Assembly: GCA_036172245.1 (NCBI GenBank)
Contig: JAYWIR010000106.1
Span: 1-64,000 of the forward strand
Source of the DNA: Raillietiella orientalis
Lineage: Eukaryota
Length of the DNA stretch: 64,000 nucleotides
Reading direction: 5' to 3'
The notes below the pieces were generated by a model, which worked only from the letters and a program-made list of their open reading frames with translations, did no database searches and was not told the DNA's origin. Numbering within the stretch: the stretch's first letter is position 1; each line of letters begins with the position of its first letter. This document shows, piece after piece, positions 3,001-39,569 of the stretch. The translations under genes and the position numbers were made by a program.

Positions 3001-3022
3001 ATAAACGCCCGGCGCAACCGGG
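1..3022 (+). mobile_element. L1/Tx1-like non-LTR retrotransposon, family 1: 3' part (decayed ORF2 RT, C-terminal zinc finger, C-rich 3'UTR)
   Basis: RT motifs are spread across frameshifted ORFs: KAPGEDG (46..690), then AVDFQKAFD and GIRQGGSLSPFLF (746..1279). YADD is mutated to tag-gcc-gac-gac at ~1248. YLG lies at ~1443 and CGVKETLTHLLMDCP in 2321..2731. A C-rich tract (2820-2945) is followed by AATAAA at 3000 and a small hairpin. Confidence 0.93.
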
Positions 3023-3158
3023 TAGAAACGAAGGGAGAGAACGCGGCGAGCGCACGTTTTCTTGCGGAGCTCCGTTTTCTCTTAACTTTTCGATATCGAC
3101 AGTGTAGAGTGCCGACTCGTTCTGACCACAACCACTGAAGTGGTGCACGCCTAGAACG

Positions 3159-4529
3159 ATGGATGCGGAATCCATCATGGCGTCCACCGAACCTACGCCG
3201 TCCGGTAGCGGACTGGCGGCTGCACCGCCCTCAGGAGCCGAGCGTTCCTGGAGTGATGTGGTGACGGCTTCAACCATCAAGGGCCCACCTCTGATGGAAG
3301 CCGAACTTGCCGCCTATATCCAAGAGGGGTAGAACCCCCTTATCATCTATAAGGTGAGACGGGAGGGTTCTAGACTAGCTGAACAGGAATTCTGTCGAGA
3401 GCTCACTCGTGTCGGTGTTCGCGAGGGTGACCTAAACGGGCTTTTGCCCATGAAAATTACAGGACCCTGGGGCGTCTTCTGCAAGGAAGTGTCGCTGGCG
3501 CAGCGCCTTTTGCAAACCGCGCTTTGCGTGAATGGCGCGAAAACGCTTCCCATCACGGAGGATCGTTCTTTAGTGGTGGAACTTAGTGCGATGCGTCCCG
3601 GCATCAGCGAGAGCAGCGTTAGGGAAGAACTCTCAAAATACGCTACCGTCTACGCGATGTGGCGTAAAAACCTGTCTAGCGACGGTTTCAGGAAGGTGTT
3701 CACGGGTATCCTTTCCACCCGTATCTCTACAACAGAGAAAGGAAGCCTCCCTTACTCGTTGCAGGTGGAGGGAACCAGGGTAGACCTCCGGTTTGTTGAC
3801 AAACCTCAAGTGTGCGGGGTATGCCATCAGACGGGGCATCCTCAAACAAGATGCCCGTCTGTGCGTTGCTCAGGGTGCAACCAATTAAGCCACACTCGCT
3901 CATGGTGCCCCTGGCGAAAGATCAGAACCCCTGCCAAGGATGGCCTAAGGATGAAAAAGGGCGTAACGGAGATCACATCAGCCTCCGAATCATCAGCATC
4001 GCCGGTGGCTATGACCGGCCCTCTAACTACGGAGGAAATCGTCGAAGGGTGGAAGGTGGTTGCGCAAGCGAGCAAACCGCCACACCCCACATCCTCCGGA
4101 AAAAGCAGCCAGCGACACCACTCAGGAGGTGCTCACGTCACAGGACACGGACGGGATCGCCCGTCCCCTAGGGAATCACTTCAGGGCGCTGAAGCCCCGA
4201 ACACCGAGACGACCAGAAGACGTCTTGCCTCAGGGTGTCAGGAGGTAGTTCTGTCCGATTCGAATGCGGAAACCGAAATCTGCCAATCCTCGGACCAACA
4301 AAACATTGCCATTCTGGGCAGATATGGCAAGAGGCGGAAGTGCGAACCGCGTTGCAGCTCAGGAACCCGTGACCAGGTTAGGGCGCCCAGGTGTCTTCGG
4401 TGTCAACAAACGCCGAAGTTACCGCAACTCCTGAACAGCCAATCGCGGAAACCGCGAGCGGTAACGATAACGCGGACGCAGTGGCCGCCCCACACTAGTG
4501 GGAGGGTCCAGATAACACCAATCCCTTAA
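3159..4529 (+). pseudogene. LINE ORF1 (type B; gag-like, two CCHC knuckles) with one premature stop
   Basis: ATG at 3159 is in frame with ORF 3354..4529. A TAG at 3330 replaces the Y of EGYNP. It carries an SWSDV N-terminal motif and the knuckles CGVCHQTGHPQTRC and CSGCNQLSHTRSWC. Confidence 0.88.
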
Positions 4530-5160: not shown

Positions 5161-5280
5161 AATTCTCCCCCCCAAGGGCGCCGAGGAGGACGAACAAGAT
5201 CTACAGTACATCGATAGCAGCAGTTTCCTTTTAGTGAAGTGTGTGGAGGTTTGGAACCAGGTGGAGGTTCCCCCTCCGTA

Positions 5281-6120
5281 ATGGTGGATCCACCGAAGGA
5301 GGCCGCTTCTGCGGCTTTCGCAGTGGAGGCCGCAGTAGCGAAGACCTCAAGATCCTGGAGTGAAGTCGCGACGGCAGCGGAGGTCGTCGGACCCAAACCG
5401 GACGATGCTGAGGCTATGGCCTATATGGAGCAGGGCTACAACCCAACGCTCCTATACATGGTAGGCAAGGATTCTTCCGAAGCCATTTTTGGAGAATTTG
5501 CCGCGGAGTTCACGCGGGTCGGGGTGAAGGGAGAAGATCTCCTCTCATTGATGCCTCTGGGGAGGACGGGGATTTGGGAGGTACGCTGCAAACGCGCGCA
5601 ACTTTCCCACGCTCTTTTGAGGACCCCGGTGCGCATCAACGATAGGAGAATATTCCCTACCTCGGAGGATCGCTCGTTCGTGATCCAATTGCGAGGCGTG
5701 CCTGCAGAGGCAACGGACGCCGAATTAAGGGAAGCTCTAGGAGCACACGCAGATGTATTCGCTGTATGGCGTAAACCTAACGCGCAAAGCGGATACATCA
5801 ACGTGAATACCGGTATGGCATCGGCCAGAATCTCTGTCGTGGTCAAGAGCCGACTACCCGTTACGATCAATGTGAAAGGTGCCACGGTGCATACGTGGTT
5901 CATCGGGAAACCGAGAATATGCGGTTACTGCGGTGAAACAGGGCACCTAATGCGAAGATACCCAAAGATCAAGTGCCGAAGGTGCGGCACAGAGGGTCAC
6001 ATCGGTAGAGTGTGTACCCAAAAACAAAGTATGCCTAGACCGGCTATTAGGAGGCCGGTTATGGTAGAAGGAACTTCGAGAACCCGACATCTCTGGAGGA
6101 GGCCGCATCCGCGGCTGTAG
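5281..6120 (+). pseudogene. LINE ORF1 (type C), 3'-truncated copy
   Basis: Close paralog of 6123..7490. The first knuckle is damaged (CGYCGETGHLMRRY). The copy switches into a second copy at ~6097. Confidence 0.88.
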
Positions 6121-6122
6121 CA

Positions 6123-7490
6123 ATGGAGGCCGCAGTGGCGACAACTTCGAGATCCTGGAGCGACGTTGCGGCGGCAGCGAAGGTCGTGGGACCAAAGCCT
6201 GAGGATGCGGAGGCTCTAGCCTACATGGAGCAGGGATACAACCCAACGCTCCTATACAAGGTAGGAAAGGCCTCAGCCGAAAATGTTTTTGGAGAATTCG
6301 CCGCGGAGTTCGCGCGAGTTGGTGTAAGTGGGGATGATCTTCTCTCCTTGATGCCTCTGGGGTGGACGGGCATGTGGGAGGTACGCTGCAAACGCGCGCA
6401 GCTCTCGCACGCTCTCCTAAGGACTCCGGTTCGCATCAATGGGAGGAGAATGTTCCCGGTTTCGGAGGATCGTTCCTTCGTAATACAGTTGCGAGGTGTG
6501 CCAGCGGAGGCGAACGACGCTGACATACGCGAGGGATTAGGAAGGAACGTTGAGGTATTCGCTGTGTGGCGCAAACCCAATGCGCAAAGCGGATACCTTA
6601 ACGTGAATACGGGCATGGCGGCGGCCAGAATATCTGTTGAGGCCAAAACGCAATTGCCCGTTACGATTTCTGTGAAAGGTGCTACGGTGCACACGTGGTT
6701 TCTCGGGAAACCAAGAATATGCGGTTTCTGCGGCGAGACGGGACACCTAATGCGAAGGTGCCCGAAGATCAAGTGCCGAAGGTGCGGCACAGAGGGCCAC
6801 ATAGGTAGAGTGTGTCCTCAAAAACAGCGTAGGTCTAGGCAGACTACTAGGATGCCGGCCAAGGAAGAAAGAACTTTGAGAACCCAACATCTCGATGAAT
6901 CCCCTCAGGTCGAGGCCGGGGATAAAGACGGTTGGGTTCTCGTGAGGAGGAAGGAAAGGCCGGAGAAGGCCCGAACGGTGGCACCAATAACTGGCAAGAA
7001 GGTAATAAAGGCGAAACCCCAGAAGGTAAGGCCCAATACCGGAAGCCAGTTGGTGCAGAAGACAAGCACATTCCCTGTTAAGGAGGCAGAGGAAGAGTTC
7101 AAGGAACAGCCCGCGAGCACGCCAGAGAGCGTGCCGAAGGACTCAGAGGCTATGGAGGTCCAGGAGGACAAGAAAAGGCCCGAGCCCGTGGTTGCAGAAG
7201 CAGAGCCTTCAAGGGTCGCTATCTTCATTGCCCCCAAGAAGATCACGCGCAAAGGGCGCGCTCAACTGGAGGACTCCGATGTTGAGTCTGAATGCAGCTC
7301 GAAGGAGGATTCCTTCAGAGTGACAGGCAGGCAGCCTAAGGCACGCAAGTGCCAGGGTGAGGAACCCGATACCATGGAAATACCATCAACCTCAAATAAT
7401 TGTGAGGAGATGGAGACCATGTCCGGGTCAACGCCCCAGGAGGGGTTGTTAATTGAAGAATTTTCAACCCCAACCCAGATGGATTGCTAG
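6123..7490 (+). CDS. LINE family 2 ORF1 (type C; two CCHC zinc knuckles, charged tail)
   Basis: Open 455-aa ORF containing CGFCGETGHLMRRC and CRRCGTEGHIGRVC, directly upstream of ORF2. Confidence 0.9.
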   Translation: MEAAVATTSRSWSDVAAAAKVVGPKPEDAEALAYMEQGYNPTLLYKVGKASAENVFGEFAAEFARVGVSGDDLLSLMPLGWTGMWEVRCKRAQLSHALLRTPVRINGRRMFPVSEDRSFVIQLRGVPAEANDADIREGLGRNVEVFAVWRKPNAQSGYLNVNTGMAAARISVEAKTQLPVTISVKGATVHTWFLGKPRICGFCGETGHLMRRCPKIKCRRCGTEGHIGRVCPQKQRRSRQTTRMPAKEERTLRTQHLDESPQVEAGDKDGWVLVRRKERPEKARTVAPITGKKVIKAKPQKVRPNTGSQLVQKTSTFPVKEAEEEFKEQPASTPESVPKDSEAMEVQEDKKRPEPVVAEAEPSRVAIFIAPKKITRKGRAQLEDSDVESECSSKEDSFRVTGRQPKARKCQGEEPDTMEIPSTSNNCEEMETMSGSTPQEGLLIEEFSTPTQMDC

Positions 7491-7495
7491 CCTCC

Positions 7496-10400
7496 ATGCG
7501 GAAACTCGAGATAGCTGTGTGGAATGTCAACGGGCTATCCGAGCAACGCAAGAGGCTAGCAATCGCGAAGACCCTAGAATCTTTCGACCTCGTACTTCTC
7601 CAGGAGGTACATCTGGTATCACACGAGATAGCACGGGATGTCGAAAGGATTACTGGGTCTGAAATGTTTTGGAGGAGCGGTGCCCTCCACACGAGAGGAG
7701 TGGCATTTCTCCTGAAGCCTAGGGTAAAGCGAACCCTGATAAGCATGCGCTTCGACGACAGGGGCAGAATTGGACAATTAACTCTAAAATGGTCACGAAA
7801 CATAGACCTCAGGGTTACCAATATCTATGCCCCTAGCAGCAACACACCAGTTCCTGAAAGGATCGCGTTTCTGCGAGACCTGAAGGAGAACTGGTGGTCG
7901 AATTGTAACGCCACCACGGCCCAACTAGTCGCGGGGGACTTCAACCTTCCACTCGCGCAAAATAGCAGGAAAGGAGGCCCGCTTTGTGCACACTGGCGCG
8001 ACGCGCTGGCCAGCATACACACAAAGAACGTATTGGACTGCAGTGTGGAGAACTCCAAGGCAATTGACCATGCCTTCCTCGACGAGCACCTGCATGGGCG
8101 GGTCAACAGGAGAGGTAGGATACGGTCAATATTATCCGACCACCCTAGGCTGGAGCTGGAGACTCTACCCAGGAACAAAGGCCCTGGGTTAGACATCTGG
8201 AGGATGCCAAGCGGTTGGTGGAGGACCAGGGATGTCAAAGAACACATGAAAGACTTCCTGAGCTCCCAACGAATTACGAAAACAGATGACTGGGATATAC
8301 TCAAGGAAGGCATACGCGACTTATGCTGCAGGTTCCCTCGGTCCGAGCTCCCTAGGGGCTTTGGCGAGGAAGAAATAAGACCCGTATACCACTCCTGCTT
8401 GGGACAGGTATACTGGCGGCCAAATATGCAGGAGCTCTCCCTGTACAAAGCGCACAAAGAACGTCAGGCGCTTCAGAGGAGTGCATGCACACTCTTGAAC
8501 CATCAGGGAGAGGCAAGGAAAAATCCCCAAGACATCATTGGGATCGTCCGCCGCTACTACACGGCGCTATACAGCGAACGGGAGATAGACTGGCAAAGAG
8601 CACAGTCTTTAATAGAGGGGGAGGTAGCGAAGCTCGATCCGGAGAGCGAGCATACACTGAGCACCCTGTTCACCCCAGCCGAGATTCTGGAGGGAATAAA
8701 ATCCCTCAAAAAGAGGAAAGCGCCCGGCGAAGATGGAATCCCGGCGGAATTTTACCGCTGTTATGCCGTGGAACTAGAACCTCTCATATCCCAACTTGCA
8801 AAATGCATGTGGGATACAGGGAAGGTTCCAACATCTTTTCGCTCTTCCAGGATGAGACTGATCCCGAAGTCGGGAGATCTCAGGTCTCTAGCAAACTGGC
8901 GCCCCATCACCTTGGTGAATGGGGACGCCAAACTATTTTCCAAGTTGTGGGCCAACAGGCTCAGAAGGCTGGCAAGCACCCTGGTAAACAGCCAACAAAC
9001 ATACGCGGTACCTGGTAGGAGCATGGATCTCAACCTGATCCAGGCATACTCCTGGTACGCTGCAAGGGGTTCGCAGGGTCATATCGCTGTGGCGGTAGAC
9101 TTCGCGAAGGCCTTTGACTCCGTCAACCAGAAGGTGCTTTTAGCGCTTCTGGAACGCATGCGCGCACCATCGGCGCTTCTGGCGTTTCTGCGCGGCTGCT
9201 GGCGGGGAGCGCAAGTCAACATCTTATACGGCAGCAGAACGATCTACGGAGTTCCAGTGAGGAGGGGCATCAGGCAGGGGGATAGCCTCAGTCCTCTCCT
9301 ATTCAGCTTATACTCCAATTTGATCGTGAATACCTGCAAGTCTAAATTGTGAAGTGACCCCTCCAGGGTGGGTCCCACATCCCCAGGGATATCGGCCTAC
9401 GCCGATGATCTACTTTTGCTCCTTGATCCCGCAACCCCCCCATCGGCACTGCAACATCTGTACAAAGAGTTGCACCGTGGAACGGGACTTCAAGTGAACG
9501 AAAGCAAAACTTTAGTACTGATCAAATCGCCGACTGCTCAGCAGACGGAAACCTGGACATAAGCCGGTATGAAGATTACCTCCCGTTTACAATACCTGGG
9601 TGCTCCGATAGGCAGTATTAATCAGGTACAAGAATGGAGAAAGGTGCATAGCACAATAGAGAACTCCCTGGCCACGCTAGAAGATCTTGAACTCCTTCTC
9701 CCGGAGCGTGTGGCAGCATGGAATTCATTCCACGCTCCTAAAATGAGAGCACTTCTATTCGTTTGTCCCATTCCCAAGGGGATGCGCAAACTCTTCAGAG
9801 CTGCAATGCGCAAGGCCCTTTGGGGAAACGGGCGATCTCGAATCAGGTTGAAAGACCTGGGAACATCGAAAGTCAAAGCGGGACTCGATCTCATTACACC
9901 GGAGATACTGAGCACCCAAATTTCATTAAGAATGCTGGAACTCGCCGCAGAACAGTGGGAGGAGCACTGGTTTCAATATGCGAGAGAAATGCTGCAGTCT
10001 GCATGCGGTAGCACCAATCTGGCGTGCTTGGCCGCACCAGGAACATCAAGCAGACTTTTAAGCCCTCTAAAGGAGATGTCCGCCCTGCTGACAAAACATC
10101 CGCAATGAAAATGCAGGCAGCAGAACTATCAAGCGCTACGGACGCTTACAATTGAATATTGGCTTCGCCTCAACGGAGAGGAAGAACAGTCACTACGTCA
10201 AAGGCTTCACCGCCTAAGAAAGATGACAGTCGCGCAGGTGGAGGAATCCTCGAGAGCTAGACTCAGATGGTCGGGTTCCCTGCTTGCCCAAGAGTGCTAC
10301 ACTCTAAAACATCGATGCGACTCTGCTTTACCTGCAAGGTGGTCCGTCACAACAAATACGGGCGGATCCAATCTTTCCACGCGACGCTGCAGGTCGTACC

Positions 10401-10900
10401 AGATAGCAGCTGAAATCCAACCAGCGAAAATCCCGGAGGGATTCAGAAGGTGGCAAAAATACTAAACGTGCCCCCCAGTGTCATTGCCACACCAACAATG
10501 CTCCATGAGGACAGAGGGATACCTCTCAAGGCCCAACACTCCCTGGGACTGGTCATACATGGGGCAGTTCCCAGGAACGCCCAACTGATACACCTCAACC
10601 CGCACACAAGCAGCGCAAACTGCAGCAGATGTGGCCAAAAAGAAACATTGGAACACCTGCTGCTGGACTGCGAAGCCCTACAACAGGCATGGAAACAGGT
10701 TGCAGAGGCAATGTTAATGCCTCAGGATACTGCGAGGGACCTACTCTCTGACTCTTCAGTCCCGACAGGCTAACGAAGCCGTGCAGAACCTTGATGTTCT
10801 GTTTCATCCGGGCAGCCATGATAGCGTGGGCGGAACAAGAAAAGAACAAGACCAGGAATTTTTTACAGATATGCCACACGCTAGGAAAGGCCACGAAAGC
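7496..10900 (+). pseudogene. LINE family 2 ORF2: APE endonuclease, RT and C-terminal zinc finger; few lesions
   Basis: APE motifs: WNVNGL, LQEVH, NIYAP, GDFN, IDH, SDH. RT motifs: WRPITL, VDFAKAFD, QGDSLSP, YADD, YLG. In-frame stops lie at 9350, 9560 and 10106, followed by frameshifts. Zinc finger: CSRCGQKETLEHLLLDC. Confidence 0.95.
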
Positions 10901-11513
10901 GGAGGGAGTATAAACCCCAACTGTGACTACTGTGGAGGGATAGACACCCTGCTCCACATACTGATGTATTGCCCGGCGAAACAATCCAATGGAGTCATCT
11001 CTGCCGGTTAATTGGACTTCCAAACAAAGATGCCAGAAGAATAACGCGCCAATTTTTCGTGCGCAATGGTCTATCGGATACTGCGGTGATGGCAACCCTT
11101 TGCTTCCTTCAGGGCATAACAAAAACCAGAATACGCCTCGAGGTAGACCAACGCAGAATCTCTGCGTGGTGCTTCGCAGCACCATTACTCCGTCATGCCA
11201 GGAGACGGACATCGCTTTTTATTCCCGCCACACGTACAGGACTGGCGTGTTACATCGAAAAACTAAATCTAAGGAGGACCGGTCTTGTCGAACATTGCCA
11301 TTTCACCCCCAGCCCCAACATAGTTAACCCTCTCCTCCCCCGTCCCCCACGAACATCTCTCCCCTTCATGCCCACCCAAAGGTCCTATCCCCAGCAAGGT
11401 TCCTCCAAATCACAGACGGGAAGGCATATCACCCCTCCCTTTTCACGCTTCCATCTTACCTTCAATGAAAATTGTACGTTTTGCTTGAAAAATACGTCGC
11501 GGCGCAACCGGGT
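10900..11513 (+). mobile_element. LINE family 1 3' end (zinc finger, C-terminal tail, 3'UTR)
   Basis: CDYCGGIDTLLHILMYCP...FFVRNGLSD...QRRISAWC matches 2321..2731. It ends in ggcgcaaccgggt, as at 3011-3023. Confidence 0.85.
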
Positions 11514-11650
11514 ACAACAGCCGGCATGTCCGTAGAAGGGAACGGATGTGTTTTTTCGGAGTTTCGTCCCCTCTCCATTTTCGTATAGCGAGATTGTGTA
11601 TAGTGCCGGCCCGCTTTAGCCACATTCCTCGACGGTGTCCACGCCGTGGA

Positions 11651-12511
11651 ATGCTGGAGGCGGTGACTGACAGTGAAGGCGCCCAGACCCCGACTTCGCA
11701 GGGCAAGCAGGCTGCTGCACCGGCTTCAGAAACGATGCGATCTTGGAGCGATGTGCTAACGGCGAAAACCATTAACGAACCACCCCCGATGGAGGCAGAA
11801 CTGGCAGCCTACTTAAAAGAGGGATACAACCGTCCCCTCATCTACAAGGTGAGACGGGCGGGATCAAGATCAGTGGAGCAGGAGTTCTGTAGCGAACTCA
11901 CGAGCGTCGGGGTTCGGGAAGAAAGACATCCAAATCCAATGGCAAACCTACAACTCAGAAATTGGCAAATGGACATCCTCAAAATCATCAGAACCACACC
12001 AGATGCCAGGAAAATATACTGGTTCTACGACCCCATCGGAGGAATCGGCAAAACCACCTTCGCGAAATTCCTCTACCTTAAAAAATCAGCAATCTACATG
12101 CACAGCTGCAAGAAAGCTGATGCAGCACATATTTATCATGGCGAAAGGATCATAATTGTAGACCTCACAAGGGACAACCAAGAAATAGTTCAGTACGGAT
12201 TTATAGAGACCTTGAAAAACGGAATCATCTTCGATTCCGAATATCAAGGATCCATCAAATACTTCGAACCTCCACACATAGTAGTCTTCAGTAACTGGGA
12301 ACCTGACTACTCCAAGATGTCCAGTGACCGATGGGTTGTAAAGAACATAAGCAAATCTGAAGCGACCAAATTGTGTCCATGGATGATCGATGACTCAGGA
12401 CTCGTGCTCCCTTGGGCCTGCCCTTCAGGCCCTAGTACAGGGCAGTCCCGAGACTCACCCGACTCCTCATGCTCCACTTTGTCACCCCCCTCACCAGAAG
12501 TAGACAAATAA
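11651..12511 (+). CDS. Chimeric ORF: LINE ORF1 N-terminus (91 aa) fused in frame to a CRESS Rep SF3 helicase domain (195 aa)
   Basis: ATG at 11651. The ORF1 part (SWSDV...EGYNRPLIYKVRR...VGVREE) runs into the Rep part at ~11924 with no stop. The Rep part has Walker A GGIGKTT, Walker B IIIVDL, motif C VVFSN and DRW. Confidence 0.85.
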   Translation: MLEAVTDSEGAQTPTSQGKQAAAPASETMRSWSDVLTAKTINEPPPMEAELAAYLKEGYNRPLIYKVRRAGSRSVEQEFCSELTSVGVREERHPNPMANLQLRNWQMDILKIIRTTPDARKIYWFYDPIGGIGKTTFAKFLYLKKSAIYMHSCKKADAAHIYHGERIIIVDLTRDNQEIVQYGFIETLKNGIIFDSEYQGSIKYFEPPHIVVFSNWEPDYSKMSSDRWVVKNISKSEATKLCPWMIDDSGLVLPWACPSGPSTGQSRDSPDSSCSTLSPPSPEVDK

Positions 12512-12543
12512 AACTACATTCTATTGCAAGTTTTCCATATTTT

Positions 12544-13467
12544 TCAAGTATACAGGGGAGGGTCTCTTAGATGTTTGAATTCCACATAAAACGTTCGAGT
12601 CAGTCTGTAAATAGGCCAACCCTGAGTTAACAATCCATTTTTAAAACACACACCAGACTGACAACCTTGCTTTATCGAGTCTGGGATATCCACACCAGAC
12701 ATGTGCTTCATCACATGCATACGATTCATAAACATTTCCACCAACAACTCTTGATCCAAACGAGAACCAAAACCACAATCAACCCAAGGACAATGCACAT
12801 AACGCTCCAAATTCCCTCCATAACAATGCATATCCTTCCTTATATAGGCCCTGGAATATAGCCGGATTCCACGAACACCGAAATAACGAACTAAACAGCC
12901 ACTCGTTTCCTTATGACCACTTATCACATCTTCCACCTTGTGATAAGGCATTCCTGCAAGCGATCCAAAAAATTCACCCTGATTGTGAGACTGATACAAC
13001 AAAACATTCCGATAAGACACTTTCATTCCAAACTCCTCAGCCATATTTCCTATCGTTAAATCCAAAGACAACGGTTCGATCTTCATAGCCACTCCACGCA
13101 ACCGTACATATCGATAATAACGACCAAACTCTTGCAAATTCAAATCCGTCAGTATACTTTGCAGATTTCCAGCACTCTCCGAATAAGTAAACATCCAAGA
13201 ACAATTTACATAATCTCCATCACCAGACCTCAACGATGCATAATGCTGCGCATTTAACATTATATCACGCGATACAACGCGCCTCGCACGAGACAGACGA
13301 CCTCGCGGACTAGGATACAATCGCAAACGCCGACGACGATTATACGGACGTCTACGCTTCTTGAAAGTCGAATAGCCACTGCGAGCTACACGCCTCCGCT
13401 TAACAGTTCCACTCGACGACTTCACCCCAAATCGCTTACGACCACGACGACCAACACGTTCAGCCAT
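12544..13467 (-). CDS. cap: CRESS virus capsid protein (circovirus-like), intact, 307 aa
   Basis: Arg/Lys-rich N-terminal arm. YYRYVRLRGVAMKIEP and the C-terminal TFYVEFKHLRDPPL resemble circovirus capsid motifs. Ambisense to Rep. Confidence 0.88.
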   Translation of the reverse strand: MAERVGRRGRKRFGVKSSSGTVKRRRVARSGYSTFKKRRRPYNRRRRLRLYPSPRGRLSRARRVVSRDIMLNAQHYASLRSGDGDYVNCSWMFTYSESAGNLQSILTDLNLQEFGRYYRYVRLRGVAMKIEPLSLDLTIGNMAEEFGMKVSYRNVLLYQSHNQGEFFGSLAGMPYHKVEDVISGHKETSGCLVRYFGVRGIRLYSRAYIRKDMHCYGGNLERYVHCPWVDCGFGSRLDQELLVEMFMNRMHVMKHMSGVDIPDSIKQGCQSGVCFKNGLLTQGWPIYRLTRTFYVEFKHLRDPPLYT

Positions 13468-13549
13468 CTCCGCGGTCGACCCTCAACTGACGTCACAGAT
13501 CCCCTTCCTCCCTACACTATGAGGCTGGTGGCGACACGCCATCCGACTC

Positions 13550-13636
13550 CCTAAGTCTTCCACGACGTCGGATCATGCCACGACCTGCACACGTGGACAA
13601 GTACATCTTGTTCCGCATTCCTAAGTCTTCCACGAC
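13550..13636. repeat. 17-nt direct repeat pair in the viral intergenic region (iteron-like)
   Basis: cctaagtcttccacgac at 13550-13566 and 13620-13636. The repeat is seen directly; its function is inferred. Confidence 0.7.
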
Positions 13637-13709
13637 TGCGGACGAAGACCAGACACCCTCATAAAAAACTTGCAATGTGACACAATTTCCAAGGTTTTGC
13701 CGAATAAGC

Positions 13710-13747
13710 TAGATGCTATCTGGGTAATACTAACCAGATAGCATCTA
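13710..13747 (-). promoter_or_regulatory. Rolling-circle origin stem-loop with nonanucleotide TAGTATTAC
   Basis: Perfect 14-bp stem, tagatgctatctgg (13710-13723) and ccagatagcatcta (13734-13747). The loop gtaatactaa reads TAGTATTAC on the - (cap-coding) strand. A TATA-like tatttata lies at 13764, upstream of Rep. Confidence 0.95.
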
Positions 13748-13827
13748 CTGCGTAGTTACCAAGTATTTATACCACCACAACAAGAGGCACAAACCAGTCT
13801 CAACTCGACAGAATTACCAACCACACC

Positions 13828-14917
13828 ATGCCTTACGGACACTTCATGTACTGGTGCTTCACCCTATGCAACTACTTAGAAAACGAACTCCTCCTGATAA
13901 AAGACTGGTGCAGACGACACTGCACATTCGCAGTTATCGGAAAAGAAACTGCAAGCACCGGCACACCACATCTACAGGGATATTTCCAACTCCGAGATCC
14001 ACGGACTTTACCGAGTTTGAAAAGACCGCCACTCGACAAAGCACACCTAGAGAGAGCAAAGGGAACACCACAGAGCAACTTACGGTACTGCACCAAAGAA
14101 GACCGCGAAGCTTGGACATATGGCCTCATTCAACAAGAAAAAGAAACCAACGACTATCAAGACATGGTAATATCATTTTTTAACTTTACCAAAATAACAC
14201 ATCAAATTTCAGATACTACAGCACATCAAAAATGGAGCTACAGAACTCGATATACTCGAACAACACACCAAGTTCTACTGAAAAAACATCAATTTTATTA
14301 AAGAATGCTTCCGCCTTACACGAAGCAGGACACACCCTAATCCTATGGCCAAATTGCAACTGCGCAGCTCGCAAATGCAAATCCTCAAACTCATCAGGAC
14401 GACACCCGATGCCAGAAAAATTTACTGGTATTTCGACCCAGAAGGAGGCCATGGCAAAACCACATTTGCCAAATTCCTGTACCTCAAAAAGAATGCTATC
14501 TACATGCACTCCTGCAAAAAGGCCGACGCTACCCACATCTACAACGGCGAACACATCATCGTTGTCGATCTAACCAGAGACAATCAGGAGATTGTACAAT
14601 ACGGCTTCATCGAAACAATGAAGAATGGCATCATCTTCGCATCGAAGTATCAAGGATCCATCAAATACTTTCAACCCCCCCACATCATTGTGTTCTCCAA
14701 CTGGGAACCTAACTACGAAAAAATGAGTATGGACAGATGGAGAGTTACAGATATTTCCCTCACTTCACAAAGCAAATTGTGTCCATGGATGTTGGATGAT
14801 GCTGGAGCCATCTTGCCTTGGGCCTGCCCTTCAGGCCCTAGTACAGGGCAGTCCCGCGACTCGCCAGACTCCAGTGAATCCACTTTGTCAGCCCCATCCC
14901 CAGAAGTTGATAAATAA
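13828..14917 (+). pseudogene. rep: CRESS Rep (HUH endonuclease plus SF3 helicase), spliced: exons 13828-14166 and 14213-14917; one premature TGA
   Basis: RCR motifs I FTLCN, II PHLQG and III YCTK; Walker A GGHGKTT, Walker B IIVVDL, motif C IVFSN. Removing the 46-nt GT..TTTCAG intron joins the two frames into ~347 codons, with a single TGA at 14279. AATAAA overlaps the stop. Confidence 0.92.
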
Positions 14918-14945
14918 AAGTACATTCCATTGCAAGTTTCATTTT

Positions 14946-15812
14946 TCAAGTATAGAGAGGAGGGTCTCTTAGATGTTTGAATTCCACATAAAACGTTCGA
15001 GTCAGTCTGTAAATAGGCCAACCCTGAGTTAACAATCCATTTTTAGGACATACACCAGACTGACAACCTTGCTTTATCGAATCTGGGATATCCACACCTG
15101 ACATATGCTTCATCACATGCATACGATTCATAAACATTTCCACCAGCAACTCTTGATCCAAACGAGAACCAAAACCACAATCAACCCAAGGACAACGCAC
15201 ATAACGCTCCAAATTCCCTCCATAACAATGCATATCCTTCCTTATATACGCCCTGGAATACAGCCGGATTCCACGAACACCGAAATAACGAACTAAACAG
15301 CCGCTCGTTTCCTTATGACCACTTATCACATCTTCCACCTTGTGATAAGGCATTCCTGCAAGCGATCCAAAAAATTCACCCTGATTATGAGACTGGTACA
15401 ATAAAAGATTCCGATAAGACACTTTCATCCCGAATTCTTCGGCCATATTTCCTATCGTTAAACCCAAAGACAACGGTTCGATCTTCATAGACATACCACG
15501 CAACCGTACATATCGATAATAACGACCAAACTCTTGCAAATTCAAATCCGTCAGTATACTTTGCAGATTTCCAGCACTCTCCGAATAAGTAAACATCCAA
15601 GAACAATGTACATAATCTCCATCACCAGACCTCAACGATGCATAATGCTGCGCATTTAACATTATATCACGCGATACAACGCGCCTCGCACGAGACAGAC
15701 GACCTCGCGGACTGCGATACAATCGCAAACGCCGACGACGATTATACGGACGTCTACGCTTCTTGAAAGTCGAATACCCACTGCCAGCTACACGCCTGCG
15801 CTTAGCAGTTCC
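14946..15812 (-). pseudogene. cap: Second capsid copy, lacking the first ~19 codons
   Basis: Near-identical to 12544..13467. It is cut at the LINE junction at ~15812. Confidence 0.9.
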
Positions 15813-16410
15813 TGCTAGGGCTTTCGCTCATGAAAATAAGAGGAGCCTGGGGCGTCTTCTGTAAAGAAGCGTCACTCGCTCAGCGTCTGTTGCGAACACC
15901 GCTTCGTGTGAACGGCGCAAAAACTCTCCCCATCACGGAGGATTGTTCGTTCGTGGTGGAACTGAGTGCGATGCGTCTGGGCATCAGTGAGAGCAACGTT
16001 AGGGCGGAACTCTCTGAATTCGCAAGTTTACGCGATTTTACTGCCTAAAAATCTGTCTAGCGACAGTTTCCGGAGGTTTACACGGGCGTTCTGGCCGCAA
16101 GAACTTCCGTTACGGTCAAGGGTAGCCTTCCCCATTCGTTCCTCATGGATGGGGCCGGGGTACACCTTTGGTACATAGGAAAACAGCAGGTGTGCCGTAT
16201 ATGTGGGCGTTCGGACCTCTCCAAACGAGATGGCCTACGATCCGCTGCTCAGGGTGCCATGAACTGGGCCACACTCGTCCCTGGTGCCCCCACCGCAGAA
16301 GCAAGGACTCTGCCGAAAGAGGGCGAACTAACAAGTGCATTGAGACGGAAGCGGTTCCGGCGCCCGATGCAAATTCCACGTCGGCGGCGCTACGCAGTTT
16401 GCTACGCAAT
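15811..16410 (+). pseudogene. Continuation of the LINE ORF1 interrupted by the virus (frameshifted)
   Basis: LLGLSLMKIRGAWGVFCKEASLAQRLL corresponds to DLNGLLPMKITGPWGVFCKEVSLAQRLL in the uninterrupted copy. The knuckle CSGCHELGHTRPWC follows. Confidence 0.88.
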
Positions 16411-16414
16411 CGGC

Positions 16415-16590
16415 CAATAAATAAACCACCAACACCATCCGCACCACCGTCTTACCTCGAATGAATTTCGCCAACAGCCAACATGCCGTATGCACTATTT
16501 TTCAACTGGTGTCTCACATTATGAAATTATTCAGAAGAATTTAAAGCTATAAAGCAGTGGTGCCGCTGCATTTGCATCTTTGCCTGCATT
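16415..16590 (+). pseudogene. rep: CRESS Rep 5' leader and N-terminal fragment from another viral variant
   Basis: ATG at 16483 gives MPYALFFNWCLTL*NYSEEFKAIKQWCRCIC, compared with MPYGHFMYWCFTLCNYLENELLLIKDWCRRHC at 13828. The upstream leader also resembles 13764-13827. Confidence 0.8.
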
Positions 16591-17620
16591 TGCCTGCAGC
16601 GCACAGTTGCATCCGCGGTATTTTGGCGGTTTGGAGTGGATCCAACGAAGTAGAGGATGCAAACGAAAGGAGTATGCAGCTCGCATTCTGCGAATAGCAA
16701 CCCGATCGCCCCACTTGGGAAACAAGCAGAACCTCGTCGGCATCCTGCAAAAGATGGAGACTCTACAAAGCGGACAGTAATCCCTTCCCGACCCTCCAAA
16801 TAACCATGGTTTTTTTTTCAGTTTTCTTTCATTTTTATTTTTCCCACCCTATCTGCTAACGTGGAGTGTCAAGTCGGTCTGCGCACCGACCACCCGGCAG
16901 TTCCCTAGTGCTATTGGCTGCAACGGGGCCTTGTACAGCAAATACAGAATGTTTTAATAAACGCCCCGGCTTGAACGGGTGAAAAAGTCGGCGGTAGGCA
17001 ACGAATCCTGTCGGAGGACGAAATCGCCGGGAGATGAAATCGCGCACGAGCAAGCATAAGCTACTGCAAGCGACATTAACCAAAAGTAAAAACCTACTGT
17101 GCCCTGTTAAGGATGGAATCGCAACCCAGGACCTGGATGGATTTATACGTTCCCTGGGAAACAAACATTTCTGGGCACATAAGCCGAGACTCAATGGCCA
17201 GACCACCAGAAGGCGTCGCGCCTCAGGGTCACATGAGATGACCCTGTCCGATTCGGACGAGAACGAAATCCGATCCAAATCGGAGAATAAAAATATAACT
17301 ATTCTAGGCAGACAACGCAAGAGTCGCAAACGCAAACTGCGATGTGACTCGGGAGCACTGGACTGCGAAAGAGAGATGTCCTGTGGATCACGGAACAGCT
17401 CTCTTCTATAGCTCCGTCGGTCGTTCTCCGCATTGAAATTCCCGAGGTTACGTCGACTCGACGAGCAAAAGACGCGGACGCGCAAGCGGTTCAGGAGTCA
17501 GCGTCTGCGAACGCTATCGCAACTCAACTCGCGAAGGCAGAAAACGCCGCAAACAACACCGACGTTGTAGCGGCGCCACACATCATGGACGACGCAGGGG
17601 CTGCGGCCGCGCAGTAGTCT
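16590..17620 (+). mobile_element. LINE fragments: a probable 3' end (AATAAACG plus hairpin at 16956) and an ORF1 type-B C-terminal piece
   Basis: 17200-17370 (TRRRRASGSHEMTLSDSDENEI...ILGR) matches 4205-4370. The terminal motif resembles the one at 3000. Confidence 0.6.
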
Positions 17621-17631
17621 GCGTTAGAGTC

Positions 17632-18513
17632 TGGTTAAGAGAAAAATTTTCTTATGCAATACTAGCAAAAGAAATTGGTATTCAAGGAACCAAACATATT
17701 CAAGGATACTTTCAACTAATAGATCCAACAACACCAAAACTAAAAAAAGTAATGGAATTCAGACGAGCAAACATAGAATCAAGCAGAGGAACTCCAAAAC
17801 AAGCTGCAGATTACTGCACGAAAAAAGACAAAGAACCTTGGATATATGGACTACTACAAACAGAAATTAAAATCTACAAACAGGTACAAAAAATTAATTA
17901 CATATAAAAAACATATTTCCAGGCACAAGATTGGATACACAATGGAAAAATTGAGAAATGGATATGGAAAGAAAAGCCTGATATATACGACAAACATGGA
18001 CAATTCATAAACGACACCATTCGATTCACAAAATCCTCTAATCAACATCCAATGGAAACAAAGACTTTACAATGGCAAAAGAATTTAATTGACATCATTT
18101 CCACTGAACCCAACGATAGACATCCACTGGTTCACCGATTACCAGGGCAATTCAGCAAGACAACAATTGCAAAACACATATATATAAAGTATGATGCTCT
18201 TTACTTAAAGAACTGCAAAAAAGCTGATGCCACTTATATGTACACTGGACAGAAGATAGTTATCATAGACCTCACAGAAGATGTACAAGAGATGATAAAT
18301 TATGGATTGATAGAAACCATAAAAAATGGCATACTATACTCAACAAAATATCAAGTTAAATGTTCTCAATTCCACGACAGCATTTTCGCAAACATGGATC
18401 CTAATTATGAAAAAATTAGTTCTGATAGATGCATAGTTCATTTCATCAATGAGAGAAATAAACAGACTACAAATCGTATCATAATATGTATTCTCCAGAA
18501 GGTTAATATTTAA
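17632..18513 (+). pseudogene. rep: Divergent AT-rich CRESS Rep relic with a 39-nt intron (17884-17922)
   Basis: KHIQGYFQL (motif II), DYCTK (motif III), degenerate Walker A, IVIIDLT, GILYSTKY, FAN. The intron contains an in-frame TAA. Confidence 0.88.
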
Positions 18514-18658
18514 TATCTCTGGCTCCTTTAAATTGAAAATGAAATTTTCTCCAAATTCGAAACATTGGTGCATCTTTGTTAATCACTTGCACTTTCTTAA
18601 TAGTTTTCTCTTGCGAACACTCAGTTGGTACCTTGTATCCAACAACGTATTTAGCAAA
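18503..18658 (-). pseudogene. cap: Capsid C-terminal fragment convergent with the 17.6-kb Rep
   Basis: KYVVGYKVP...PMFRIWRKFHFQFKGARDIKY* compared with KHMSGVDIP...PIYRLTRTFYVEFKHLRDPPLYT*. Confidence 0.72.
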
Positions 18659-22879: not shown

Positions 22880-23740
22880 ACAGCGAAAAATATGGGACTA
22901 CCTCCAAAGGTATCACTGCAAAGGGTGTCACTGTCCATCTCCGACGACAGGCTACGATGTTTTGCATTTGACAGTGCTTACTTGGAACCAGCAATAGAAA
23001 GTTAGAAATAGAAAGTCCGGAAAGCATGAAATTTTACTGCTCCAAACTCGACCCATAACCATGGGTTTGAGGATCCGTCGACAATGAAACGGATAATTCA
23101 TACGAAACAAAGGTACTATTCCTCTACACACTTAATCTAATTCCAGCAGTTACAACTGATCAAAGCTGGCTACAACGAAAAGTACTTGCCAGAACACCAT
23201 ATCAGATTCTACTATAGAATGAATACAAAAAGGAATGCTTTTGTCAAAACTGACACTAGACACCTATGAACGGACTACAGCTGAGGGAAGGGCAACTAAC
23301 CATACTAAACATCTTCGAAAAACATGAATCCAAGAAATACAATCTGGATTAAAGACGAGAACGGATACGACGACTAGACTGCCTTCCCGAAATGGCTTTT
23401 CCTGAAGAAATCGGCATTTACCTACAATCATGCAAGAAAAGCAGACGCTGCCCATCTTTTTAACAGGGAAAAAATCAGTTTGATTGATCTCACCAGGGAC
23501 AAAAACCCGTATTGCACGAGTTCTTACTCGTGCAATACGGGTTCATTGAATCATCGAAAATGGCTATAAAATAGGAATCCATAAAATACTTGGCCACTGC
23601 ATAGGTCTTCTTTGTGAAGGTCAACTGATCACCAGACTACTTTGAACAAAGCATCCACTGATGACAGTTTATCACTATTGATGATCCCTCCACAAAAGAC
23701 CAACTTCACTAAGGATAAAGAAGGAAACAACACCTTTTGT
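22880..23740 (+). pseudogene. rep: Heavily decayed CRESS Rep relic with a 34-nt intron (23113-23146)
   Basis: DSAYLEPA, FYCSK, QLQLIKAG, KADAAH, LIDLTRD and VQYGFIE are recognisable despite stops and frameshifts. Confidence 0.8.

Positions 23741-38508: not shown

Positions 38509-39569
<1,061 letters not shown>

What the first reader, a model, noticed from the sequence alone, without database searches (positions are those of the whole stretch)
12421..14826. Complete, reconstructable genome of an apparently unusual CRESS virus
Seen: a full ~2.4-kb unit with intact Cap and a perfect ori, and a Rep one nonsense codon from intact. The nonanucleotide is on the cap strand, as in cycloviruses. The helicase motifs (RKIYW..P.GG.GKTTFAK, VDLTR, GIIFASKY, HIIVFSN, DRW) look nanovirus/alphasatellite-type rather than having the circovirid DDF Walker B, while Cap looks circovirus-like. 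Inference: a chimeric Arfiviricetes lineage whose host is revealed by endogenisation. The greater-than-unit-length layout resembles infectious clones and could release circles by recombination.
Basis: partly seen in the sequence, partly recalled or inferred. Interest (0 to 1): 0.85.

Follow-up and report, generated by a model that had tools for sequence, protein, structure and literature searches.

The report
Young endogenous CRESS virus tandem insert
A small circular-DNA virus of an unclassified lineage is integrated, about 1.6 genome lengths long and almost undamaged, inside a repeat of a eukaryotic genome, which ties a virus known only from sequence surveys to a host but is a known kind of genomic fossil.

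Summary
Window 11922-15812 is a 3.9-kb head-to-tail insert, 1.62 units of about 2406 nt, of a CRESS-DNA virus. It has an intact 307-aa cap, one perfect stem-loop with TAGTATTAC on the cap strand, and a rep with one in-frame TGA. That intron matches the 40-52-nt introns of a host gene in the window.

The flanks are paralogous to one contiguous LINE-associated repeat elsewhere in the window, so this is a real insertion and not contamination.

The two copies are not one dimer. The helicase parts are 73% identical and the cap parts 96%, both with dN/dS near 0.1, so two virus variants were joined.

The [quoted passage not shown] reading is supported. However, this combination and the origin on the strand opposite rep are shared by dozens of uncultured CRESS genomes, so this is not a new chimera.

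Cap has no detectable homologue, and "circovirus-like" rests mostly on its basic arm.

There is only one origin and the only full rep is broken, so autonomous release is not expected.

Verdict: a new member of a known kind (near-complete CRESS EVE), of moderate interest.

The parts
10878..11921 (+). Left host flank: 5' region of a LINE-associated repeat
   Evidence: 65.5% identical to window 2421-3424. Junction alignment.
11922..15812 (.). Whole viral insert, 3891 nt = 1.62 units of about 2406 nt
   Evidence: In the paralog (3424|3438) the flanks are contiguous. About 4 nt of target are missing and there is 2-3 nt of microhomology at the right junction.
11922..12511 (+). Variant-A rep 3' fragment (SF3 helicase plus C-terminal tail), open and fused in frame to the upstream repeat ORF (ORF 11546-12511)
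   Evidence: tblastn 78% aa identity to the full rep. Pfam RNA_helicase E 6e-4. Profile HMM 176 bits.
12544..13467 (-). Cap copy 1, intact, 307 aa, arginine-rich N-terminal arm, TGA stop
   Evidence: dN/dS 0.12 against copy 2, with differences by codon position 7/4/21. Atlas nearest clusters are Cressdnaviricota capsids.
13468..13827 (.). Intergenic region between the divergent cap and rep starts. It holds two 31-nt direct repeats (13542-13572, 13612-13642) and a TATA-like TATTTATA at 13764-13771
   Evidence: (repeat family D4) and sequence read. The regulatory role is inferred.
13710..13747 (-). Origin stem-loop: 14-bp perfect stem, loop with nonanucleotide TAGTATTAC (13732->13724) on the cap-coding strand
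   Evidence: It is the only such hairpin in the window.
13828..14166 (+). Rep exon 1: HUH nuclease domain (motifs CFTL.., HLQG, YCTK), 113 codons
   Evidence: Pfam Viral_Rep E 5.6e-15. PDB circovirus Rep nuclease domains E 6e-14 to 2e-9.
14167..14212 (+). Putative 46-nt rep intron (GTAATA...TTTCAG); shifts the frame by one
   Evidence: It carries stops in the downstream frame. The spliced reading aligns continuously with the unspliced second Rep copy. Its size and 5' site match host introns of 52, 40 and 52 nt. No RNA evidence.
14213..14920 (+). Rep exon 2: linker, SF3 helicase (GGHGKTT, VVDLTR, IIVFSN, DRW), C-terminal tail, TAA stop. In-frame TGA at 14279-14281
   Evidence: AF2 model of 14345-14917 has pLDDT 84.5. 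BFVD matches.
14946..15812 (-). Cap copy 2, 5'-truncated at the host junction (lacks the start and about 15-20 codons), otherwise open
   Evidence: tblastn 95% aa identity. 32 of 852 nt differ from copy 1.
15813..16290 (+). Right host flank: continuation of the same repeat
   Evidence: 73% identical to window 3438-3911. Junction.

Best explanation
This is a young endogenous viral element: a greater-than-unit-length (1.62x) double-stranded form of a CRESS-DNA virus. It was joined by non-homologous end joining into the 5' region of a LINE-associated repeat in the germline of a eukaryote with very short introns.

The virus had a genome of about 2.4 kb, ambisense, with the nick site on the cap strand. 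Rep was spliced, with a circovirus-like HUH nuclease and a nanovirus/alphasatellite-like SF3 helicase. The capsid protein has no detectable sequence relatives. It belongs to a large, unclassified clade of uncultured CRESS viruses that shares this Rep type and origin placement.

The insert is built from two virus variants. They share nearly the same cap but have divergent rep genes, with the switch at the junction between the 3' ends of rep and cap. This implies rep/cap modular recombination in the exogenous population, followed either by integration of a mixed concatemer or by a second genome recombining into a resident fragment.

Shown: anatomy, junctions, selection signatures, and relatives. 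Inferred: the integration mechanism, the splicing, and that the host of the window is the virus's host. As it stands the element is a fossil. The only full-length rep is interrupted and there is a single origin, so it most likely does nothing as a virus. At most it is transcribed.
For: Real insertion: the two flanks (10878-11919 and 15818-16290) match adjacent parts (2421-3424 and 3438-3911) of one repeat elsewhere in the window. The junctions show a small target loss and microhomology.

Virus identity: Pfam Viral_Rep E 5.6e-15 and RNA_helicase E 8e-5. A 14-bp stem-loop carries TAGTATTAC.

Two variants: identity steps from about 0.72 to about 0.97 at 12535/14937. Helicase dN 0.165 and dS 1.4-2.2; cap dN 0.015 and dS 0.126. 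Differences are concentrated at third codon positions: 36/24/91 (chi-square p 1e-11) and 7/4/21 (p 4e-4).

Young: there is one stop in 3429 nt of coding sequence, and P(<=1 stop) falls to 0.033 at 3% neutral divergence. By contrast, the flanking repeat copies are 27-35% diverged.

Clade: the best Rep matches are 41% (helicase, 17 hits among 91 candidates) and 47-48% (nuclease, 13 hits among 68 candidates) to uncultured 1.7-2.3-kb contigs. 80 IMG/VR loci carry a related Rep. In 58 of 77 small ones the nonanucleotide hairpin is on the strand opposite rep, in 0 on the rep strand, and in 19 none was found.

Helicase type: a profile of the clade aligns with the full-length PCV2 Rep chain only over the nuclease (positions 29-128 to residues 11-111). 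In BFVD the first ICTV-classified hits are banana bunchy top virus M-Rep (rank 41, 32% identity) and its satellite S2 Rep (rank 46, 34%). No named circovirus is among the 20 named rows of the top 50.

Host link: the rep intron is 46 nt with GTAAT...CAG, against host cathepsin-L introns of 52, 40 and 52 nt. Three Rep helicase copies of the window form one clade (100/99) among 71 viral relatives.
Against: No reads could be laid, so the junctions and copy number rest on the assembly alone (one search listed no runs; no whole genome is held).

The intron has no RNA evidence. The linker around the splice site is poorly conserved, with 7- and 3-residue gaps next to the junction. None of the 80 related viral loci showed a comparable split rep; the 2 flagged were contig-end artefacts.

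30 of the top 50 BFVD rows carried no name, so a circovirus could be hidden among them.

The capsid assignment is indirect. There was no homologue among 1.84 billion representatives, and single-sequence AF2 gave pLDDT 33.6.

Low dN/dS between copies could in principle also come from selection in the host.
Confidence: 0.8

Rival explanations
1. Assembly artefact: reads of an exogenous virus contaminating the sample were collapsed into a host repeat contig.
For: The coding content is nearly intact. No read data were available to check depth or junctions.
Against: Both flanks continue one repeat family at adjacent positions of a paralog. The two copies are different variants joined in register. 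One cap copy is truncated exactly at the host junction. Further decayed Rep pieces of the same clade lie within 8 kb.
Confidence: 0.05
2. The element is still biologically active as a virus source. Circles excised by recombination between the 1.5-kb direct repeats would replicate with Rep supplied in pieces or in trans by an exogenous relative.
For: The direct repeats are 87% identical, and 96-97% over about 870 nt of cap. Cap and origin are intact. A start codon lies just upstream of the helicase domain (ORF 14345-14917). The insert is young.
Against: The window has a single origin, so no Rep-mediated release between two nick sites is possible. The only full-length rep has a premature stop between nuclease and helicase. 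TGA is a true stop here, because cap itself ends in TGA. No exact match to the origin was found in IMG/VR or JGI metagenomes.
Confidence: 0.07
3. Co-option: cap, or the helicase fragment fused to the repeat ORF, is kept by the host as a gene or as a template for antiviral small RNAs. The whole region would be an EVE/transposon cluster of the piRNA-cluster type.
For: Five Rep-derived pieces (11922-12511, 13828-14917, about 16400-16590, 17437-18510, 23230-23568) and the LINE ORFs all lie on the + strand. Open frames persist. dN/dS is about 0.1.
Against: The low dN/dS is shared by the truncated, start-less cap copy, so it is better explained by divergence before integration. There are no expression or small-RNA data. 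An in-frame fusion has a 1 in 3 chance expectation.
Confidence: 0.08

Closest known systems
Whole-genome and tandem CRESS EVEs of Entamoeba and Giardia (Naryaviridae, Nenyaviridae, Vilyaviridae; Kinsella et al. 2020, PMC7493932, passages read)
   Same: Complete CRESS genomes including cap are integrated in a eukaryotic genome, one as a 10-kb tandem repeat. They were used to assign a host to viruses known only from metagenomes.
   Different: The host here has LINEs and 40-52-nt introns. No exogenous counterpart was found. The tandem is a heterodimer of two variants. Sequence relationship to those families was not tested, because no named references were at hand.
Cyclovirus (Circoviridae) and its EVEs in mites and ants (Dennis et al. 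2018, PMC6069186, passages read)
   Same: Ambisense two-gene genome, TAGTATTAC on the cap strand, spliced rep in some members (recalled), nuclease domain most like circovirus Reps.
   Different: The genome is 2.4 kb rather than 1.7-2.1 kb. The helicase is not alignable to PCV2 Rep by profile. Cap is below the Pfam Circo_capsid cut-off (22.2 vs 36.2 bits). That survey found only rep-derived elements in invertebrates, no cap.
Nanoviridae M-Rep and Alphasatellitidae Rep
   Same: The SF3 helicase is 32-34% identical and superposes at TM about 0.6 (BBTV M-Rep and BBTV satellite S2). The Walker B is of the D-x-x-R kind rather than DD (read; the family motifs are recalled).
   Different: Those are about 1-kb single-gene components or satellites of plants. 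Here the genome is a 2.4-kb ambisense rep+cap unit, and the nuclease scores higher with circovirus than with nanovirus domains (55 and 46 vs 32 bits).
Unclassified CRESS groups at the base of nanoviruses/alphasatellites (CRESS4/5) and chimeric Reps (Kazlauskas et al. 2018, PMC5923481, passages and section 3.4 read)
   Same: Mixed affinities of the two Rep domains; environmental 2-kb genomes.
   Different: Membership could not be tested without their sequences. Within my set this Rep is no more discordant than its peers (top-20% overlap 0.29 vs median 0.36).
Greater-than-unit-length endogenous plant viruses (tandem geminivirus-related DNA in tobacco; activatable endogenous pararetroviruses) - recalled, not read here
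   Same: Tandem, more-than-one-genome integrants flanked by host DNA.
   Different: The activatable cases carry complete functional genomes. Here rep is interrupted and only one origin is present.

Membership tests
Endogenous viral element of a CRESS-DNA virus (Cressdnaviricota) | Rep with HUH nuclease motifs I-III plus SF3 helicase | tested here: met
   Pfam Viral_Rep E 5.6e-15 and RNA_helicase E 8.3e-5. Motifs read.
Endogenous viral element of a CRESS-DNA virus (Cressdnaviricota) | Stem-loop origin with NANTATTAC nonanucleotide | tested here: met
   14-bp stem with TAGTATTAC in the loop.
Endogenous viral element of a CRESS-DNA virus (Cressdnaviricota) | Viral DNA contiguous with host DNA on both sides | tested here: met
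   The flanks are paralogous to one contiguous repeat. This holds in the assembly only; no reads were available.
Endogenous viral element of a CRESS-DNA virus (Cressdnaviricota) | Germline, heritable, present in other individuals | not testable with these tools
   No genome or runs are held.
Circoviridae, genus Cyclovirus | Ambisense rep/cap with the nonanucleotide on the cap-coding strand | tested here: met
Circoviridae, genus Cyclovirus | Genome of about 1.7-2.1 kb (size as given in PMC6069186) | tested here: not met
   The unit is 2402-2406 nt.
Circoviridae, genus Cyclovirus | Rep, both domains, inside the Circoviridae clade | tested here: not met
   The clade profile aligns to PCV2 Rep in the nuclease only. 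No named circovirus is among the 20 named rows of the top 50 BFVD helicase matches; 30 rows were unnamed. No tree with named references could be built.
Circoviridae, genus Cyclovirus | Capsid of the Circo_capsid family | tested here: inconclusive
   22.2 bits against a cut-off of 36.2. Without the basic arm, 12.7 bits and E 0.15. The Atlas feature search points to Cressdnaviricota clusters in which 14-49% of members carry PF02443.
Nanoviridae / Alphasatellitidae | About 1-kb single-ORF components; no cap on the rep molecule (recalled) | tested here: not met
   Rep and cap share one 2.4-kb unit.
Nanoviridae / Alphasatellitidae | Rep helicase of that type | tested here: inconclusive
   These are the first classified hits in BFVD, but only at ranks 41 and 46 and 32-34% identity. 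Unclassified CRESS Reps are closer, up to 47%.
Uncultured CRESS clade represented by IMG/VR loci L002-L081 | Rep related in both domains | tested here: met
   104 ORFs hit by the nuclease and 116 by the helicase. 91 were hit by both, from 71 loci.
Uncultured CRESS clade represented by IMG/VR loci L002-L081 | Origin hairpin on the strand opposite rep | tested here: met
   58 of 77 contigs; 0 on the rep strand; 19 none found.
Uncultured CRESS clade represented by IMG/VR loci L002-L081 | Related capsid | tested here: not met
   Cap was compared with 127 non-Rep ORFs of at least 180 aa from those loci. The best profile hit was 6.7 bits, confined to the basic arm, and the best hhalign probability was 15%.

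The most novel reading that the evidence does not exclude
The insert is a very recent capture from a still-circulating, host-specific CRESS virus family that has not been described. Its capsid founds a new capsid family, and its rep intron is tuned to a host with about 45-nt introns. The co-oriented pile-up of at least four independent Rep-derived integrations in one LINE array marks a locus that records and perhaps counters these infections through small RNAs. In that case the array could also still give rise to episomal circles in some tissues.
Probability: 0.15. Interest if true: 0.65.

Novelty: new member of a known kind. Interest (0 to 1): 0.45.

Why it matters
Most CRESS-DNA viruses are known only as circles from environmental or faecal metagenomes, with no host. 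A near-intact integrated genome that keeps rep, cap and origin together, sits inside host repeats and carries a host-sized intron gives a direct, testable host link. That link covers one branch of a large uncultured Rep clade (80 related IMG/VR loci). It also pairs that Rep with a capsid gene that sequence searches cannot recognise. This is exactly the gap noted for invertebrate CRESS fossils, where only rep was found (PMC6069186). The heterodimer further gives a snapshot of rep/cap modular recombination between co-circulating variants. It does not change the picture of what CRESS EVEs are.

Tried and rejected
Sequencing runs: none was listed for 11500-16300, and no RNA holder was listed. No whole genome is held for the window. 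Read depth, junction reads, splicing and expression therefore remain open.

Cap homologues were sought in several ways:
- Word-index search: 1428 candidates, none at E<=0.001.
- Full HMMER scan of 1,835,955,588 representatives: 0 hits.
- IMG/VR peptide patterns: 3 stretches, none confirmed.
- ORFs of the 81 fetched loci: best E 0.066.
- Profiles of their capsid clusters, and hhalign: nothing beyond the basic arm.
- PDB sequences: only chance S-layer hits, E 0.45.
- Single-sequence AlphaFold2: pLDDT 33.6, unusable, so no fold search was run on it.

Exact-match scans with the origin hairpin found 0 matches in IMG/VR and 0 in JGI metagenomes.

Introns in related viral reps: 2 of 80 loci looked split, but these and other split cases were contig-end overlaps.

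Host identity: the Atlas search with the LINE ORF2 gave mixed animal and fungal taxa and was not informative.

Earlier findings of this scan: nothing on this genome or these sequences. One unrelated note on a bacterial element turned up.

TGA as a sense codon was rejected, because cap ends in TGA. A second intron around the TGA was also rejected: the only GT..AG span I saw by eye around it is 32 nt and would shift the frame, and the codon aligns with a sense codon in the second Rep copy.

No tool gave named Cressdnaviricota sequences.
Full report
**1. What is in the sequence**

The region holds two long direct repeats, spaced 2402 nt apart in cap and 2406 nt apart in rep. In a self-BLAST of the window, 11926-13410 matches 14332-15812 at 87% over 1485 nt.

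Read from left to right the region contains:
- a 3' rep fragment, 11922-12511 (+);
- a 360-nt intergenic region;
- a full rep, 13828-14917 (+);
- a second cap copy, 14946-15812 (-), which lacks its start and about 15-20 codons.

Pfam recognises:
- the rep N-terminus as Viral_Rep (E 5.6e-15);
- both helicase copies as RNA_helicase (E 8e-5 and 6e-4; the second, 20.6 bits, is just under the 21.5-bit cut-off);
- cap only weakly as Circo_capsid (E 1.9e-4, 22.2 bits against a cut-off of 36.2).

The origin is a 14-bp perfect stem, 13710-13723 paired with 13734-13747. Its 10-nt loop carries TAGTATTAC at 13732->13724 on the cap-coding strand. It folds at -13.3 kcal/mol, and 0 of 200 shuffles fold as well. 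It is the only such hairpin in the 64 kb.

**2. Rep needs a splice as well as having a stop**

The HUH part (13828-14166, 113 codons) and the rest (from 14213) lie in different frames. The 46 nt between them start GTAATA and end TTTCAG, and they carry stops in the downstream frame.

With this segment removed, and the one in-frame TGA (14279-14281) read as X, the product aligns end to end with a second, unspliced Rep-like copy in the window. That alignment is 39% identical over 279 columns and runs through the junction. The linker is poorly conserved and has 7- and 3-residue gaps nearby.

A host cathepsin-L gene at 38512-39555 (-) becomes one open frame of 217 codons once three introns of 52, 40 and 52 nt are removed. 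Two of these introns begin GTAAT. The rep intron is therefore of the host's size class.

None of the 80 related viral loci showed a comparable intron, and I have no RNA evidence, so the intron is inferred. TGA is a genuine stop in this system because cap itself ends in TGA.

**3. It is an insertion, not contamination**

The left flank 10878-11919 is 65.5% identical to window 2421-3424. The right flank 15818-16290 is 73% identical to 3438-3911. These are adjacent parts of one LINE-associated repeat that is uninterrupted at its other copy.

The junction alignment puts the viral DNA at about 11922-15812. About 4 nt of target are missing and there are 2-3 nt of microhomology. This pattern is expected of end joining, not of Rep-mediated or homologous insertion. 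That mechanism is inferred.

The surroundings are eukaryotic:
- LINE ORFs with zinc knuckle, APE endonuclease and reverse transcriptase;
- a cathepsin-L gene and a TAF9-like gene.

No runs were listed and no genome is held, so everything rests on the assembly.

**4. The tandem is made of two variants**

Sliding identity between the copies is about 0.72 across the helicase and 0.80-0.85 in the rep tail. It jumps to about 0.97 at 12535/14937, the gap between the two stop codons, and stays there through cap.

| Region | nt differences | dN | dS | Differences by codon position | p |
|---|---|---|---|---|---|
| Helicase | 151 of 570 | 0.165 | 1.4-2.2 | 36/24/91 | 1e-11 |
| Cap | 32 of 852 | 0.015 | 0.126 | 7/4/21 | 4e-4 |

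Both parts therefore diverged under purifying selection, that is, mostly before they became dead DNA. One cap copy cannot be functional, because it has no start. The copies are thus two related viruses that share nearly the same cap but have distinct reps. This implies rep/cap modular exchange in the exogenous population.

Whether a mixed concatemer integrated once, or a second genome recombined into a resident fragment, cannot be told from this sequence.

**5. Age**

The 3429 nt of coding sequence (both reps, both caps) contain one stop and no frameshift. About 5.1% of possible substitutions would create a stop. P(<=1 stop) is 0.48 at 1% neutral divergence, 0.14 at 2% and 0.033 at 3%.

The insert is therefore young, whereas the repeat it sits in is 27-35% diverged from its paralog.

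**6. Which virus**

Nearest proteins:
- Helicase part: 41% identity at best, with 17 proteins at E<=0.001 among 91 candidates.
- Nuclease: 47-48% identity, with 13 proteins among 68 candidates.
- All come from 0.7-2.9-kb contigs, except one helicase hit (P0008) on a 14-kb contig, and none is named.

A profile search of IMG/VR returned 80 loci with a related Rep, mostly 2.0-2.5-kb contigs. Both domains find relatives in that same set, 91 ORFs from 71 loci.

Against solved structures, the nuclease scores:
- 55 bits with 7KII, the Muscovy duck circovirus Rep nuclease according to the listing of PMC9973303;
- 46 bits with PCV2;
- 32 bits with the two 94-95-residue Rep nuclease chains 2HWT/6H8O, which I recall as a nanovirus.

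The helicase finds no circovirus chain. Its best Rep hit is 9PQJ at E 0.32, which is redondovirus Rep (PMC12981564).

A 76-sequence profile of the clade aligns with the full-length PCV2 Rep chain 7LAR only over residues 11-111.

The AlphaFold model of the helicase (pLDDT 84.5) was searched in BFVD. It matches unclassified CRESS Reps first, at up to 47% identity. The first viruses of classified families are:
- rows labelled Cruciviridae sp. at ranks 30-31;
- banana bunchy top virus M-Rep at rank 41 (32%);
- its satellite S2 Rep at rank 46 (34%).

No true circovirus is among the 20 named rows of the 50 shown; 30 rows had no name.

**7. But it is not an unusual chimera**

I read 9 of the 13 best nuclease relatives (P0020-26, 28 and 29; P0027 and P0030-32 were not read):
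- 6, including the top four, carry the same kind of helicase (GKT, then D/H/N-x-x-R in place of DD, then FAN/FSN);
- 3 carry the circovirus kind.

A top-20% hit-overlap test in the spirit of Kazlauskas et al. gave 0.29 for this Rep. The median for its 71 peers was 0.36, and 44% of peers scored no higher. That set was chosen by helicase similarity, so the test is weak.

The nonanucleotide hairpin lies on the strand opposite rep in 58 of 77 related small contigs, on the rep strand in 0, and was not found in 19. The "cyclovirus-like" origin placement is thus a trait of the clade.

Kazlauskas et al. report that 71% of unclassified CRESS Reps are chimeric, and that groups CRESS4 and CRESS5 sit at the base of nanoviruses and alphasatellites (PMC5923481, passages and section 3.4). 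Membership in those groups could not be tested.

**8. Cap**

Cap is the distinctive part. No homologue appeared in any of these searches:
- the word-index search;
- 1.84 billion representatives;
- IMG/VR;
- the capsid candidates of Rep relatives;
- PDB sequences.

Without its first 67 residues the Pfam Circo_capsid signal drops to 12.7 bits, E 0.15. Most of the "circovirus-like" look is therefore the arginine-rich arm.

The protein-language-model search puts it next to Cressdnaviricota capsid clusters (score 0.96, 216 of 256 features). PF02443 occurs in 14-49% of the members of those clusters. This is a lead only. Single-sequence folding failed.

That it is a real protein-coding gene is shown by the codon-position pattern. 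That it is the capsid is inferred from position, orientation, size and the basic arm.

**9. Neighbours**

Within 12 kb on the same strand lie three further Rep-derived pieces:
- About 16400-16590: rep 5' leader plus the first 37 codons, 57% aa identity, one stop.
- 17437-18510: a near full-length, decayed Rep with no intron and a degenerate Walker A. It may have a cap tail on the opposite strand at 18515-18652 (E 0.14).
- 23230-23568: a helicase fragment.

In a helicase tree the two copies of the insert and the 17437-18510 copy form one clade (100/99) among 71 viral relatives. The decayed copy sits on a long branch. The same virus lineage therefore entered this genome repeatedly, which supports a true host relationship.

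**10. Can it come out?**

There is one origin only, so release between two nick sites is not possible. The direct repeats could in principle recombine, but the only complete rep is interrupted. I found no exogenous counterpart of the origin. I rate continuing activity at about 0.07.

**11. Precedent and novelty**

Whole CRESS genomes, and a 10-kb tandem EVE, are described in Entamoeba and Giardia and were used for host assignment (PMC7493932). Surveys of animal genomes found many invertebrate CRESS EVEs, all rep-derived. Those authors noted that the cap genes of such lineages might be unrecognisable (PMC6069186).

My literature searches listed nothing on an element like this one. I could not search by host name, because the host is unknown to me.

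This is a new member of a known kind. Its value lies in linking Rep, an orphan Cap, an origin and a host in one locus.

Noticed in passing
window 17437-18510 (+), possibly to 18652: A second, older Rep-like element of the same clade: 39% aa identity to the main rep, one frame with in-frame stops, no intron, Walker A degenerate. A weak cap-tail-like match lies on the opposite strand right after its 3' end (18515-18652, E 0.14). It is truncated by a LINE fragment that starts near 18655.
   Followed up: partly
window 16400-16590 (+): A fragment covering the rep 5' leader and the first 37 codons (57% aa identity, one stop). It is inserted in the same repeat copy as the main insert. Its homology starts just downstream of where the origin hairpin would be, and no hairpin is retained.
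   Followed up: partly
window 23230-23568 (+): Another decayed Rep helicase fragment (45% aa identity over 56 residues, one stop), around the Walker A and Walker B region.
   Followed up: no
window 11546-12511 (+): A 321-codon ORF with an ATG that fuses about 125 codons of repeat-derived sequence in frame to the variant-A helicase fragment with intact Walker A, Walker B and motif C. This may be chance (1 in 3) or an expressed fusion.
   Followed up: no
window 1-22800: The region looks like a head-to-tail array of LINE copies: 5' region 2421-4529, ORF1 with CCHC 5218-7487, ORF2 with APE+RT 7457-10835, repeated from 10878. All CRESS pieces and LINE ORFs are on the + strand, as in unistrand transposon/EVE clusters.
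   Followed up: partly
window 38512-39555 (-) and 50834-51126 (+): Host genes in the lower-GC stretches: a cathepsin-L-like protease with 52-, 40- and 52-nt introns, and a TAF9-like histone-fold gene that seems to have a similarly short intron (read by eye). The repeats are about 52-57% GC, against about 35-45% for these stretches.
   Followed up: partly
L035, L044, L057 (IMG/VR contigs of 14-22 kb): Three Rep relatives that group in the 10-row supported clade holding the window's helicases lie not on 2-kb circles but on long contigs. Next to the Rep, L044 has a Shotoku_capsid-family ORF and a SET-domain ORF. They may be larger viruses or host DNA carrying captured Reps.
   Followed up: partly
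window 13542-13572 and 13612-13642: Two 31-nt direct repeats, 84% alike, each with inverted ends (TCCGAC...GTCGGA in the first; TCCGCA...TGCGGA in the second), lie in the intergenic region upstream of cap. A TGACGTCA palindrome also lies near 13488. They are possible promoter or Rep-binding elements.
   Followed up: no
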